A DNA stretch of 62,555 bases, filler included, from Collodictyon triciliatum (lineage: Eukaryota): assembly GCA_043381765.1 (NCBI GenBank). It is 5 parts of 5 records of this genome, joined end to end, with 100 filler letters (N's around TTAATTAATTAA, not from the genome) between each part and the next. Parts side by side here need not be neighbours in the genome. Positions count along the whole stretch, not along the records: positions 18,922 to 32,718 come from JBHJMP010000161.1; 4 more parts are not named here. The stretch is one strand, 5' to 3'. Every line of letters starts with the position of its first letter. Position 1 is the stretch's first letter. The translations under genes and the position numbers were made by a program. A model generated the notes under the pieces. It saw only the letters and a list, made by a program, of their open reading frames with translations. It did no database searches and was not told where the DNA came from. This document shows positions 26,336 to 33,196 of this stretch, one piece after another.

Positions 26336-29085
26336 CTAATTTATTCTCATGTTGCTTCCAATATTCACTGCCCGCTCTGGGGGAGTGCCTATTTTCCATA
26401 TCTTTATGGTTCCGTCGCTGCTCACAGATGCAATACCTGTGGCATTTTGTATGTTGATGAGGCCATTCACACTGGCGGTGTGGTCTATGAAAGTATCCAC
26501 TAGCAGTCCGGAACCAAAATCCCAAAGTTTGACTGTCTTGTCGAGCCCTCCAGATATAATTGACTTCTGGTCAGTCGAGATGGATGCGGCCAGAACCTCG
26601 TCAGCGTGACTCACAAGGACCGAAATCGAAATTCCAGTGAGGGTGTTCCAGACACGAATTGACCTGTCACTGCTTGCAGAGACAATTTTGCTGCCATCAC
26701 TCGAAACAGATACGCTATTGACAGAGCCCTTATGCAGTTTCAAAATTTGAAGTAGACTACCATCAGCACGACTAGATATTCTGATACTATTATCAGTGCT
26801 GCCAGATATAATTTTTTTTTCCATCTGCCGTAATGGTTACACTCTTTATGATACCAGTGTGACCAGATAAACTCATTACCAGAGAACCATCTACAATGTT
26901 CCAAACCTTGACAACCATATCACCACCGCCTGAGATAATCTCTGTTCCATCTTCGTTGACAACTACGCTATTGACAGCTCCAGAGTGTGCTACAAGAGTT
27001 TGCATAAGCCTACCACTTGCTAAATTCCATATTTTTATTGTGGAATCAGAGCTTCCAGAAACAATTTTGCTTCCATCAGGGGTTACCGCCAGACTCAAAA
27101 CGGCTCCACGGTGACCCTCCATAGTGAGAATAAGGATACCAGTGGCAGAGTCAGATACTTTAATTGTACTATCAAATCCCCCAGAGACGAGATATTTGCC
27201 ATCCGGCGTAGATGTAATGCTAGACACCCCTCCCTTGTGGGTCAGAAACGTGCCAGCAAGATATCCATAGACTAAATTCCATATCTTTATTGTTTTATCA
27301 AAACTTCCCGATATGAACTGCAGGCTGTTTGGAATGAAAGAAATGGATGTTATTCGGCTGGTATGTGCCACTATATTTCGTAGCAACATTCCTGACGAAA
27401 AATCCCAAATTCTAATAAAAGCATTTTCCTTCCCTGACACAATTTTTGTTTCGTCTGGGGTCAAAGCAATACTATACACCGCACTGTACGTGAAGTCTTC
27501 TATAGCTCTTACTAAAGTACCATCAGCTACGTTCCATATCTTTATGGTACTGTCACTACTGCCGGTTACAAATTTGGACCCGTCCTTAACTACTACAATA
27601 TCATTGACAGTGTTTCGGTGGTCTGTGATTGTATACAAGATTGCACCATCAGATACATTCCAGACACGAACTCGTGAAATACCGCTACTTCCAGCAATTA
27701 TCTTTGTTCCATCGGGAGTAAAAGCCAGACAAAATACATAGCCAATTGTCAACGTGTGAATTAAGGCCCCATCAGATGCGTACCACAACTTTACTACCTG
27801 ATCTTCTCCGCCTGAAGCCACAATATTTCCATCTACAGATATTGCAACTGCTTTGATGGCAGATGTATGGCCTTTCATGGAGAGAACCAAGGAACCTGAT
27901 GATATGTCCCAGATTTTAACAACAGTCGCTGTTCCTCCGGAAATCAGTCGAGAGCCATCTGATGATTGAACAAGATCATTCATACCGTCAAGATAATTGC
28001 TAATTTGGTAATCATAAAGCATACTGGGCAAACCCCATCCTCTAATTCTTTGGTCTAAACCTGCTGAATAGACCATAGAAGCATCAGACGCTACCACAAC
28101 AGAGTATATATCACGAGTTGGGCTAACATCAGTACGAATTAATGTGCCACTGGGAAATTTCCATATTTTTATGGTAGCATCCATGCTTCCTGAAACTAGC
28201 ATCGATTCGTCTGGAGTGACAAAGACACTCATGACCACATGTTCGTGGCCGATAAGGGTTTTAATTAAGGTGCCATCATTGATATCCCAAATCCTCATGG
28301 TGTAGTCCCATCCGCCAGATATAGCGGTGAAACCATCAGGACTCACCACAACAGATTGGACGAAGTTGGAGTGACCTAGAAGAGTTGAAATCAGGCGTCC
28401 TTCGCGGAGTGCCCAGACTTTGACTGTATTGTCCCACCCTCCAGAGACTATTTTGGAGTTGTCTGGTGTAATTGAAATGCATGATACAATATTAGTGTGT
28501 CCAATCAACGTCCTCACCAGCATTCCGTCAGAAAGATTCCATATCTTGATGGTCATGTCTTCACTTGCAGAAGCAACCTGTAGGCCGTCAGAGGTCACGG
28601 CAACATCATTGACGTTGGCGGTGTGACCAGTGAGAATTTGACTTAGTCTTCCTGTTTGAAAATTCCACACGTTAACATCCCTTTCTGTACAAGAAATAAT
28701 GAACCTTTCATCTGGTGTTATTCCAAGACATGAGACCGATGTATTGATGAACCGGACTAATAAACCGTCAAATGTCCATATTCTGATAGAATTGTCCGCA
28801 CTACCACTGATGATTTTGGATTCGTCAGGGGTAAGAACCATAGAGTTGACCGCAGCTTGGTGGCCACGAATGGCCTGTACCAGGTTTCCATTGCCATATT
28901 CACGAATTTTCACAGTGTAATCAGCCCCAGCAGACACAATTCGAGATCTGTCAGAGGTAATCACAGCACGGTTGACAGCAGCGGAGTGCACGTCCAAGGA
29001 ATAGATAGGAGACTCACAACTCACGAAGGAAAACAGAGCGCAGAGGACCAGAAAAGCTGGGAATTTTCACAAGAGTTAAATGCAT
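26336..29085 (-). pseudogene. Intronless WD40-repeat protein (~21 repeats) with predicted signal peptide; two +1 frameshifts in A-tracts (pseudogene or assembly errors)
   Basis: ORFs 26793-29024 and 26336-26824 are continuous GH..V..V..SPDG..IVSGS.D.TIKIW repeats, joined by removing one A from the A9 run at 26812-26820. Removing one A at 29064-29067 links ATG 29085 to MHLTLVKFPAFLVLCALFSFVSCESP. Confidence 0.85.
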
Positions 29086-29879
29086 ATAGAGCCCGATTTT
29101 ATGTTGGAGGTTTAAAGGTCAAAATGAGCATATAGTTCAAAGTTGTAAAAACTTTACGCGCCACCGCCACGAATTGAGATACGTCTCGTTGCATTGGCAC
29201 AAGATACTCGGCTGTTTCGCAGAATATATTTTTTTTTTTTGGTGTGAGTAAATAAAATAGTATTACACGAATATTCTTTTTACAATATGTAACTATGTGC
29301 CCCTCTGATAAAGCTTTTTCGCTGTATTCGCATAATCTTATGGCACACTTTCGAAGGGATGAAACCACTAAAGATATAATACCAATGCCACACGAGAAAA
29401 TCAAGCTGCACAGAGTAGAGAGTCTAGAGAAAATGATTGGTGATAAACTATTGCATTAAGCAGTTGATACGACCAACCACCCCCATAACACTCCGGGCTC
29501 AAATCTTTGTGTAACTGATTTCGTTTTGGCTGTGACCCACAACAAAACCAGGCACAAATCCTTTTCATCCTCATTTCATCAACAGCAGCAACGCGCATCA
29601 GGTTTGACCACAAGTTGTCAGCGCGCTTGTGGTCATATATCCATCCTATAACGCTCATCAAACCTCTCGAATAGCACTGGGCGCTATTGAGCGATTTATA
29701 TTTTTTTGGAATATTCTTGAAATATTTCTTTAACCGTACATCAACTAAGAAAACGCTTATGTGACATTTTATTTGCAATATCGTTGATATTGCTTGCATC
29801 CTGAGTCACTTATCCAAAACAACCGTTGGATCCATTCCTCAAGTGGAATATATACAAATACAATGCAGATGGTTGAGTT

Positions 29880-30060
29880 AATTATAATGTAACACATTTT
29901 ATTTACTACTAGAAGAGGCATACCAATCTTTCAAATAGTAAACCTGGTGCGCTAGTATCCAAGGTCTCGCCACTTTTTTCACAAAGGTTGTGTAGTGGCG
30001 AAGACTGCCAGGAAAGACCCGACAGCTTGTTTTTTTAAAGAGAGGTGTATATTTTTTTCT
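29880..30060 (-). ncRNA. Candidate Fanzor omega-RNA scaffold
   Basis: Three adjacent stem-loops at or downstream of the Fanzor 3' end: 29964-30005, 29943-29964 and 29902-29942. The position matches omega-RNAs of TnpB/Fanzor loci. Confidence 0.5.
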
Positions 30061-31975
30061 TGAGGATTAAAAGACCCTTTCTTGAGTATATTATCAGCGC
30101 TGTTAAAGTCCCTTGTCAAGAATACACTTTGCTTGCTTTCTAAACGATTGCATTATTTACATATGAGACATCTATATACACCATTTTTTTTTTGAATTTC
30201 CTTTCGGTTTCATATATTCCAGTTCTTTTTTGCAGATACAGCACATATTGAGGTTTTAAATTCATCTACACTGTTTCAAAACGTTTGGATATTATTTTTC
30301 GTAATCCCCTTCCGATTGTTGCCATAAGATGTTTCATCGGGCATTTTCTGCTTCAGTCTTCATATGCCAGTACAACATCCTTGCCAAATGTCTTTTCGAT
30401 TCCGTCCATAAACAATTCTTTACTTCTTTTTGTATAAACATGCTGTCTCCATCTCATCTTTCGAAAAGTTCCTTGTTCATAAAAATGTGGAAAACTCTAT
30501 CTGGCATCTTGATTTCATAGGTACATATTTTCGAAATTGTTCATAATCGACCGTGCATGAATTATGTTTACACAGTTATGTCTCTAAATCGATTAAATAT
30601 GCTCTTAATGTATCAAACCGCTGATTCTCTTCAAAAGTCCTGTGACCATAAGAAACAGCACTTTGTAAACCTGTCGCCATGCATATCCCTGAAGCATTGT
30701 GCTTTTTTTCTTGCGCAAGAGTATTTTGTGATTTTTAAGAGATTTGCTATCATGTCTTGTTTGGTGTGCCGTGTAACGTAATTTCTTACCTGTCTCATCC
30801 GCCATATAAACCAAATCAAACTTGCCTGCATCAACTACAACATATTTTTTTTTGTCGCTAATAAAGATAACTGCTCTTCGGAAAGTTCATCTATATAAAC
30901 ATATTCTTGGATTTTATTTGATTAAATTTTTGAATTTTGAATTTGAAATACCTTTCTTTTCAAATAATAATTACACTGCCAAGCCGTGTGTTTGTACCAT
31001 GTATTTAAAATGTTAGTCTCTTCATTGAAAGACTCTCTTCTTCATTTCAAAGAAATCATCCCATAGGGTCTGTTTGCATCCTGGTATATTCTTCTTTAAT
31101 TATGTTTTTCCAGTTGATACTAATATATCTATCAAACATGCAGTATCTATATATATCTATCAAGCAGTATCTAGGTTAATATGAAGCAGTAAATTGCTAG
31201 TTCTTATAGGGATTGGTTGATGTAGTTTGGGCCCAATGTCCTCAAAAGTACGATTCATGTAAATCAAACATGGAATGTACTTATTCGAATTGACTTTGGG
31301 TTATATTTTATACCATTTATAATATTGCTGGGAATAATACGATTCATTTGCATTTAATCCATTCTTTGTATTGTTCCGGTATGTCGAGTTTCTTGAAGAT
31401 GGCTTTTTTTTTAAGTTTTGTAAATCTGCCTTTTTAATAGCTTCCGTAATATCCTCATCTTTAGGTACTGTTTGGTTTATAAAGCGCAGTAGCCTCTTTA
31501 CAAAATTTTCCTTAATGCTATTATGATGAGCTGTTAGCATTAGCTTCGCCAAGTACGGTAATACACGAGACAGTCTGGCCAACGGAACGCGTTCTTCTTG
31601 GGACAAAAGGAATCGAAAATCATTCAGATAAAAAGTCATCATGTCGATACTCATTTCTGGCTTTTTAAACTTGCAGGTCTATCTTGTGAAACTACTCCCA
31701 CTGTCTTTAAAGCGTACAAAAAAAAAACATTTCATCGGTTGCTGGGAGTGATTGTGATTTGAATATGTAACATATTGCAAACAGATAAGTGTTGGTAACC
31801 AAATTATGACACAATAAAACGGTGCCGTTGATTTTATAATAGTCATCCGCATTCTTTACAACCGACTTTAGAGATGTTTTCACATTTCGATAGTCTGGGT
31901 TTACAGACTTTAGATTCTAAGACTCAAGACGCCTTGTTTTCTTTATCTGAAAGTCTTTGTTTTACTTTTTGCCTG
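29980..31975 (-). pseudogene. Degenerate Fanzor1 (TnpB-derived RuvC RNA-guided nuclease)
   Basis: Fragments across frameshifts and stops: YRNVKTSLKSV; HHNSIKENFVKRLLRFINQ; LIYMN..PKLHQPIPIRT..HINLDTA; RuvC-I VVVDAGKFDLVYMADETGKKLRYT (D 30830-30832); KMRWRQHVYTKRS; RuvC-II VDEFKTS (E 30261-30263); CCIC...VYRCLICK*C zinc finger; RuvC-III RDFNSADNI (D 30108-30110). Confidence 0.88.
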
Positions 31976-32574
31976 TAGAAAACTACCGAGTTTTTAATTT
32001 TAATAAAACTTTAGTCAATTGGTTAATTTAATACAAACAAACAACTGCACAAAATCAATTTATGTAAAATTAAGCATCTACTGAGACTCTCAAAATGTGC
32101 GCATTGTGGCAAACAAACACAAAGTTTTTTTTACAGGTGATTCGAGACAAAACGCTGAGAACCGATTCGGCGAGTTCGAAAGGACAGCCCTTAGCCATTG
32201 CGGCTGAAAGTCAACATATCGGCTTCAAACAAAATGATTGCCGCAGCAAGTGTAGATAGAATGCTCTTTCGAAATGCATGTTTGGTGGCAGGTTTATAGG
32301 ATTGGCTCTGTCTGGGCTAATGCAACCGCTTATTTATAATCTTGAATTAATATTACATAAATGGTAAATAAAATATAAATTGATTACAGGAATAGAATAC
32401 GATTATTAAGTTTTTTTTTAATCTTTATTATATATACTAATCATACTAGAATATTATTCAGGTTCTTTCTAAGATTCACCGAAGCTCCTGCTTTCGTCAA
32501 TCCAGATTCAATTCGATGGTTGTCTGTGTAATAATCTGCTATATATGGGTACACTATCATTGTGTAAAAAGTGT

Positions 32575-33196
<622 letters not shown>

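What the first reader, a model, noticed from the sequence alone, without database searches (positions are those of the whole stretch)
29870..30060. Hairpin cluster at the Fanzor 3' end: candidate omega-RNA scaffold with adjacent guide
Seen: GTCTCGCCACT (29964-29974) pairs with AGTGGCGAAGAC (29994-30005, one bulge) around an inner CACAA/TTGTG stem. A second hairpin CCTGG-TGC..GTA-TCCAAGG spans 29943-29964, and a third is closed by TTTACTA (29902-29908)/TAGTAAA (29936-29942). They are contiguous, GC-richer than the flanks, and overlap the end of the Fanzor frame. Established: TnpB/Fanzor omega-RNAs come from the 3' end of the ORF to the element end, with the guide taken from flanking DNA. Inference: the element end is near 29880-29900, and the ~15-20 nt just below it (read on the minus strand) would be the guide.
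Basis: partly seen in the sequence, partly recalled or inferred. Interest (0 to 1): 0.78.

Follow-up and report, generated by a model that had tools for sequence, protein, structure and literature searches.

The report
Fossil Fanzor guide-RNA on a Helitron
This is the folded guide-RNA end of a dead jumping gene that carried a eukaryotic RNA-guided DNA cutter (Fanzor1); its front half keeps the shape seen in giant-virus relatives, while its back half appears rebuilt from a rolling-circle transposon end, a known kind of system in an unusual carrier.

Summary
Conservation stops at CTAG|T: the element ends at 29909, not 29880-29900. A first model from more distant relatives missed it. Relatives are inverted-repeat elements (59 of 66); this family has no inverted repeats (0 of 40), a hairpin+CTAG end and Helitron RepHel remnants in 6 loci. 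Best reading: a decayed omega-RNA scaffold of about 120 nt, guide starting at about 29907, on a non-autonomous Helitron. No expression data; no intact copy was seen. The scan noted this end before on other copies in this genome.

The parts
29979..31946 (-). Broken Fanzor1 gene (many stops and frameshifts); the three RuvC acidic residues are still readable in separate frames (VDAG, DEFKTS, RDFNS)
   Evidence: tblastn of intact relative P0001, E 2.6e-112; only solved-structure hits are three Fanzor1 proteins
30002..30028 (-).
   Evidence: 0.74; 0.96
29967..30001 (-).
   Evidence: 0.95/0.88; 12 of 12 modelled pairs kept against L326, 7 changed on both sides
29957..29966 (-). Single-stranded linker, aligned without gaps to the conserved linker of relatives
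29952..29956 (-). 5' arm (ACTAG) of the predicted terminal stem that pairs with the element end plus the first flank base
   Evidence: lowest-energy fold of the majority sequence; median 0.95, 78 of 97 flanks above 0.5; weak in single decayed copies (19 of 85)
29921..29940 (-). Hairpin D, 8 pairs with a GAAA loop in the family (damaged in this copy), 8 nt before the terminal CTAG; Helitron-type terminator and distal part of the terminal stem
   Evidence: loop inverted to TTTC in 14 of 110 ends, GAAA form in 62
29909..29912 (-). Element 3' end, CTAG
   Evidence: CTAG in 70 of 110 ends; conservation 0.91-0.96 per base in 97 well-anchored ends, lost after +1
29908..29908 (-). First flank base T (0.90 of 97 ends); target base, probably taken into the scaffold
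   Evidence: principle from PMC10711439 (passages)
29893..29907 (-). Predicted guide, 14-15 nt of flank (start uncertain by 1 nt); in this copy it mispairs with the scaffold
   Evidence: inference; guide length from PMC10432273 (passages)
31947..32718 (-). Upstream part of the element up to a T-rich tract at the contig end; the family's 5' 0.9 kb is not in this window

Best explanation
This is the relic omega-RNA locus of a Fanzor1 carried by a non-autonomous Helitron-derived element. In the active ancestor a transcript ran through the end of the gene and past the element end and was trimmed to about 120 nt of scaffold (hairpin A, hairpin B, linker, terminal stem enclosing hairpin D and closed by CUAG plus the target U; about 95 nt if hairpin A is not part of it) plus 14-15 nt of flank as guide. 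The Fanzor-RNA complex would cut DNA matching that flank next to a short motif, that is the empty insertion site, favouring retention of the element. The last 35 nt did double duty as the DNA hairpin+CTAG signal for a RepHel transposase acting in trans. Shown here: gene identity, element end, conserved fold of A, B and linker, lack of inverted repeats, RepHel remnants. Inferred: transcription, RNA boundaries, terminal stem, cleavage, mobilisation by RepHel. This copy is dead.
For: Protein hits only Fanzor1 structures. Sharp shared end at CTAG|T. Majority sequence folds at z -6.2 on the gene's strand against -3.5 on the other; the sense strand is better in 38 of 40 single copies. The same position in relatives holds a covarying structure (10 of 19 pairs with two-sided change, 0 of 500 shuffles; 17 of 23) that sits in different reading frames. 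Model R2, with no family sequence in it, ranks 30029-29951 first in the window (22.1 bits, E 0.0014, next 14.1) and hits in register in 22 of 29 sibling loci; family copies keep 22 of 23 pairs, 10 changed on both sides. In relatives the linker end can pair with the element end in 107 of 108. About 16 codons overlap the structure, like 17 in GtFz1 (PMC10432273). Helitron: no inverted repeats in 0 of 40 family copies against 59 of 66 relatives; RepHel N-terminal DNA inside 6 copies, 72-80% identical to a RepHel frame in the same genome.
Against: Model R1 and a sequence-only profile from more distant relatives did not find the region. R2's members and stem register were chosen after the likeness was seen by eye, its score is modest and its E-values rough. 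Within the family there is no excess of compensatory change and RNAalifold of 103 copies gives no fold. The terminal stem is rare in single copies (19 of 85), and the 107 of 108 count is partly built into the anchoring patterns. No intact gene: 7 of the 150 scored matches had no stop in the matched stretch, longest open piece 253 of about 648 aa among loci L001-L129. [quoted passage not shown]
Confidence: 0.72

Rival explanations
1. The hairpins are DNA signals only: a rolling-circle terminator and sub-terminal binding sites, with no RNA role.
For: Hairpin D plus CTAG fits a Helitron end; its loop is inverted in 14 of 110 ends, as expected of a DNA palindrome; a weak inverted copy of B's inner part lies about 600 nt upstream of the gene (E 0.002-0.24 in 5 of 20 sequences).
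Against: A and B are conserved in fold in relatives that use inverted-repeat ends instead, with G-U pairs and bulges, and fold better on the gene's strand. This rival explains D, not A and B.
Confidence: 0.1
2. It is an omega-RNA scaffold, but the carrier is not a Helitron: a decayed cut-and-paste or unclassified element (like MCi-2, 11-12 bp duplications without inverted repeats), with RepHel pieces being a nested insertion.
For: An 11-13 nt repeat of the 3' flank just before the 5' end in 5 of 25 two-ended copies against 20 of 600 mismatched pairs, permutation p 0.002; 5' end begins T(T/C)TGCA then a TTTG microsatellite, not TC; relatives are inverted-repeat elements.
Against: No inverted repeats (0 of 40); fixed hairpin+CTAG|T end; the RepHel-like frame runs straight into a segment seen in most copies whose 5' part was held; Fanzor-bearing Helitrons with duplications are described (PMC3627910).
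Confidence: 0.15
3. The hairpins are chance folding of a GC-richer gene tail, inherited by all copies from one ancestor.
For: No within-family covariation; substitution rates in stems (0.086) are close to unpaired (0.112) and coding (0.097) columns; R1 negative.
Against: z -6.2 for the majority sequence; top hit of an outside model; 10 two-sided changes. Neutral decay of dead copies predicts no within-family covariation.
Confidence: 0.03

Closest known systems
Fanzor1 omega-RNAs of SpuFz1, GtFz1, PpFz1 (PMC10432273, PMC11423790)
   Same: Homologous protein; structured RNA region from the gene's tail to the element end with a variable flank; overlap with the C-terminal codons as in GtFz1; predicted length between SpuFz1 (90 nt) and GtFz1 (150 nt).
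   Different: No RNA or activity shown; gene broken; Spu-1 ends are inverted repeats with TA duplication, here a hairpin+CTAG end; RNA sequences were not compared (not held by a tool).
CRe-1, -2, -3 Fanzor1-bearing Helitron2 elements of Chlamydomonas (PMC3627910; PMC10530073)
   Same: Non-autonomous Helitron carrying only Fanzor1, fixed 3' end with hairpin, variable 5' side, target duplications in part of the copies.
   Different: CRe elements are Helitron2 (asymmetric inverted repeats, TTTT target, introns); here the end is CTAG (Helitron1 type), no such repeats were noticed by eye, and no introns are needed to align the gene.
Fanzor1 inverted-repeat elements of giant-virus contigs (L226-L309, L322-L401); PGv-1-like by recall
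   Same: 35-63% protein identity to P0001/P0152; same order hairpin A, hairpin B, linker, terminal stem at the same distance from the RD motif (86-98 nt against 99-121).
   Different: They end in TA-tipped inverted repeats (59 of 66) that form the terminal stem; one G-C pair invariant in all 14 of alignment A4 is C-G here.
MCi-2 of Mucor circinelloides (PMC3627910)
   Same: Fanzor1 element without inverted repeats, 11-12 bp patterned duplications.
   Different: MCi-2A carries a partial Crypton transposase; here RepHel remnants and a CTAG end; duplications seen only in a minority.

Membership tests
Fanzor1 | TnpB-like RuvC with DPG, late catalytic E before the zinc finger, RD motif; TDG in WED | tested here: met
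   P0001 has VDPG, NEFRTS, RDFNS, TDG; window copy aligns to it, with substitutions and breaks
Fanzor1 | Closer to Fanzor1 than to Fanzor2/TnpB | tested here: met
   only three solved-structure hits, all Fanzor1; no tree was built
Fanzor1 | Intact frame able to give protein | tested here: not met
Fanzor omega-RNA | Conserved region from gene end to element end, then variable flank | tested here: met
Fanzor omega-RNA | Conserved secondary structure on the gene's strand | tested here: met
   negative with model R1
Fanzor omega-RNA | Terminal stem including fixed flank bases, no pseudoknot (PMC10711439) | tested here: inconclusive
   0.95 in majority sequence, 19 of 85 in single copies, no covariation
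Fanzor omega-RNA | Expressed small RNA bound to the protein; guides cleavage next to a TAM | not testable with these tools
   no RNA holder listed
Helitron1 | 3' sub-terminal hairpin and CTRR end (PMC3627910) | tested here: met
Helitron1 | 5' TC end | tested here: not met
   5' ends read mostly TT(T)GCA-like, TC in a few; boundary loose
Helitron1 | No terminal inverted repeats | tested here: met
   0 of 40
Helitron1 | Insertion between A and T without duplication (recalled) | tested here: inconclusive
   +1 T 0.90; duplication-like repeats in 5 of 25
Helitron1 | RepHel transposase in cis or a partner with the same ends | tested here: inconclusive
   RepHel frame in G000:C6377 and N-terminal remnants in 6 copies; partner's 3' end not seen
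Helitron2 | Asymmetric terminal inverted repeats and 5' hairpin | tested here: inconclusive
   none noticed by eye; no dedicated computation
Tc1/mariner-type Fanzor1 element | Terminal inverted repeats and TA duplication | tested here: not met

The most novel reading that the evidence does not exclude
A Fanzor1 cassette moved from a giant-virus inverted-repeat element into a Helitron1-type element, kept the 5' half of its omega-RNA (hairpins A, B, linker) and rebuilt the 3' half from the rolling-circle terminator, re-closing the terminal stem with CUAG plus the target U; the pairing of RepHel with Fanzor went along with non-canonical 11-13 bp target duplications and a burst to hundreds of copies. 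That would be a natural scaffold swap showing which half of a Fanzor1 RNA is fixed and which is replaceable.
Probability: 0.4. Interest if true: 0.62.

Novelty: new variant of a known kind. Interest (0 to 1): 0.42.

Why it matters
It gives comparative support, from natural two-sided base changes, for a Fanzor1 omega-RNA core shared between giant-virus elements and a eukaryotic repeat, with no Rfam match in the sequences scanned. It fits the published view that the first stem is constrained and the part before the guide is free (PMC11423790, section read), and it offers a case for asking why a copy-type rolling-circle element keeps a guided nuclease (raised in PMC13565253). The value is limited because the family looks dead and nothing is shown to be expressed; the intact relative P0001 is the testable object.

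Tried and rejected
Rfam: 6 sub-threshold matches, none meaningful; relatives gave tRNAs only. RNAalifold of 103 family ends: no structure. Profile and model R1 from distant relatives: region not found at E up to 10; my first by-eye alignment to them was out of register. The G-C pair at 29999/29969 of this copy against A-U in most siblings looks compensatory but is what chance gives (2 of 103 seen, about 2 expected). Different loci sharing the first 11-12 flank bases (guide-directed insertion or carry-over of flank): 9 pairs against 2.7 expected in all 95 ends, but 4 against 2.6 (p 0.27) after removing copies found through this window's own flank, and 0 against 0.5 in the unbiased 46: rejected. 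Duplications at 5'-truncated copies: 1 of 16 against 1 of 240, not established. The duplication test on two-ended copies was run twice with different automatic boundaries, several boundaries wrong in each. DNA of P0001 not found. No second, intact Fanzor family among the scored matches. Pfam did not name the fragments or P0001. The TAM could not be called.

Full report
Observation. The stretch folds better than shuffles on the minus strand (z -2.77) and not clearly on the plus strand (z -1.28).

The gene. The minus strand from about 31946 to 29979 is a broken frame that aligns along an intact 648-aa protein, P0001. A sibling fragment and P0001 each match only three solved sequences, all Fanzor1. 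No intact copy was seen: of 751 candidates 150 were scored and 7 had no stop in the matched stretch; the longest open piece among loci L001-L129 was 253 aa.

The element end. A DNA search gave 40 scored matches of 352 candidates, 82-86% identical apart from self, all stopping at the same place. An exact 17-base motif occurs 138 times, its reversed control 0 times. From the loci held I took 110 ends (one later proved a duplicate); 70 end in CTAG. In the 97 best anchored, the last four bases are 0.91-0.96 conserved, +1 is T in 0.90, +2 is A in 0.56, then conservation is gone (anchoring on the motif inflates the CTAG figure but not the drop after it). In the window the end is 29909. An AT-rich patch follows at +8 to +12 (0.90 AT against 0.63 further out in the 47 pattern-found ends), a target preference.

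The fold. The majority sequence of the last 129 nt folds at z -6.2 on the gene's strand and -3.5 on the other; in 38 of the 40 single copies tested the sense strand scores better. The fold is hairpin A (30028-30002), hairpin B (30001-29967), a linker, and a terminal stem in which ACTAG (29956-29952) pairs with CTAG plus the +1 T and encloses hairpin D (29940-29921). Single decayed copies are less clear: terminal stem above 0.5 in 19 of 85, second hairpin in 33 of 83. Inside the family there is no excess of compensatory change and RNAalifold finds nothing, as expected if copies decayed after insertion (inference).

Outside relatives. Viral and metagenome contigs with Fanzor1 at 35-63% identity carry a structured motif 86-98 nt after the RD codon, against 99-121 in the family, in several reading frames. 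It covaries: 29 sequences, 92% of cells paired, 10 of 19 pairs changed on both sides, 0 of 500 shuffles; 14 closer sequences, 84% paired, 17 of 23. A model and a profile from the first set did not find our region. A model from the second set, with no family member, found 30029-29951 on the minus strand as best hit of the window (22.1 bits, E 0.0014; next 14.1 bits) and in register in 22 of 29 sibling loci, 13 at E below 0.1. I picked that set and its stem register after noticing the likeness, so this is a directed test. In the fitted alignment the six best-scoring family copies keep 22 of 23 pairs, 10 changed on both sides; against L326 the window copy keeps all 12 modelled pairs of hairpin B, 7 with both bases changed, and both bulges. 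In relatives the end of the linker can pair with the last bases of the element in 107 of 108 (partly by construction), the same closure as predicted here.

The carrier. 59 of 66 viral-contig relatives have an inverted copy of their right end upstream; 0 of 40 family copies do. Family copies with both ends are mostly 3.1-4.2 kb and begin with a loose T(T/C)TGCA motif and a TTTG microsatellite. The genome holds a 1194-codon frame, part of it reading N, with Helitron Rep and PIF1 matches over cut-off; six family copies carry its N-terminal DNA at 72-80% identity, in the same orientation, running into a segment that most 5' parts share. Hairpin plus CTRR is the Helitron1 end as defined in PMC3627910 (parts 1-4 of 7 read). 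Against a plain Helitron1: no TC start, and an 11-13 nt duplication-like repeat in 5 of 25 two-ended copies against 20 of 600 mismatched pairs (p 0.002). The same paper reports duplications in Fanzor-bearing Helitron2 elements, and PMC10288648 (passages) speculates that Fanzor contributes to them. The loop of D is inverted in 14 of 110 ends, a sign that it behaves as a DNA palindrome.

Mechanism. Published Fanzor1 RNAs run from the gene tail to 14-15 nt past the element (PMC10432273, passages), take fixed flank bases into the scaffold and end in a stem rather than a pseudoknot (PMC10711439, passages), and vary freely after the first stem (PMC11423790, passages and one section). On that basis the scaffold here is 30028 (or 30001) to 29908 and the guide about 29907-29893; the target would be the empty site. 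Transcription, boundaries and cleavage are inferred, not shown.

What is known. Fanzor1 omega-RNAs and Fanzor-bearing Helitrons are in print. My five paper searches showed no description of a scaffold whose 3' half is a Helitron1-type end, nor of this giant-virus motif, but Repbase and supplements were not seen. Two earlier notes of this scan on other copies judged the Helitron reading unproven or unsupported; the RepHel remnants and the inverted-repeat test argue for it, short of proof.

Verdict. Real feature, right idea, wrong boundaries; a decayed member of a known system in an unusual carrier. Interest 0.42.

Noticed in passing
window 26793-29066, minus: Intact 757-codon frame made of WD40 repeats (16 stretches), about 840 nt past the element end; a host gene, not part of the element.
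   Followed up: partly
window 32550-32579, plus: Weak inverted copy of the inner part of hairpin B and its A-run, about 600 nt upstream of the Fanzor start; seen at the same place in L115, L176, L127, L112 (E 0.002-0.24). Possibly a remnant of an older inverted repeat.
   Followed up: partly
L137 (G000:C469): Copy of only about 160 nt after the microsatellite: the 5' end is joined to the right arm of hairpin B through a short shared sequence, because the family's 5' sub-terminal region resembles hairpin B in direct orientation (by eye).
   Followed up: no
L226-L309, L322-L401, 3' of the Fanzor genes: Strongly covarying RNA motif in giant-virus and metagenome Fanzor1 elements, with no Rfam match in the 6 loci scanned; candidate for a curated family.
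   Followed up: partly
3' flanks of family copies, +8 to +12: TAAA within +5 to +14 in 27 of 47 unbiased ends against 6 and 2 in two control windows; a similar ATAAA precedes many 5' ends.
   Followed up: partly
L006/L026 and L020/L027/L114: Different loci share both private end variants and the first 9-11 flank bases; not significant across the set but suggestive of parent and daughter.
   Followed up: partly
family alignment: Multi-base variants recur in mosaic combinations among copies, suggesting gene conversion or template switching in the stems.
   Followed up: no
L223 (G000:C6377): Helitron RepHel frame of 1194 codons without a stop in the readable part, cut by the contig end in the helicase.
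   Followed up: partly
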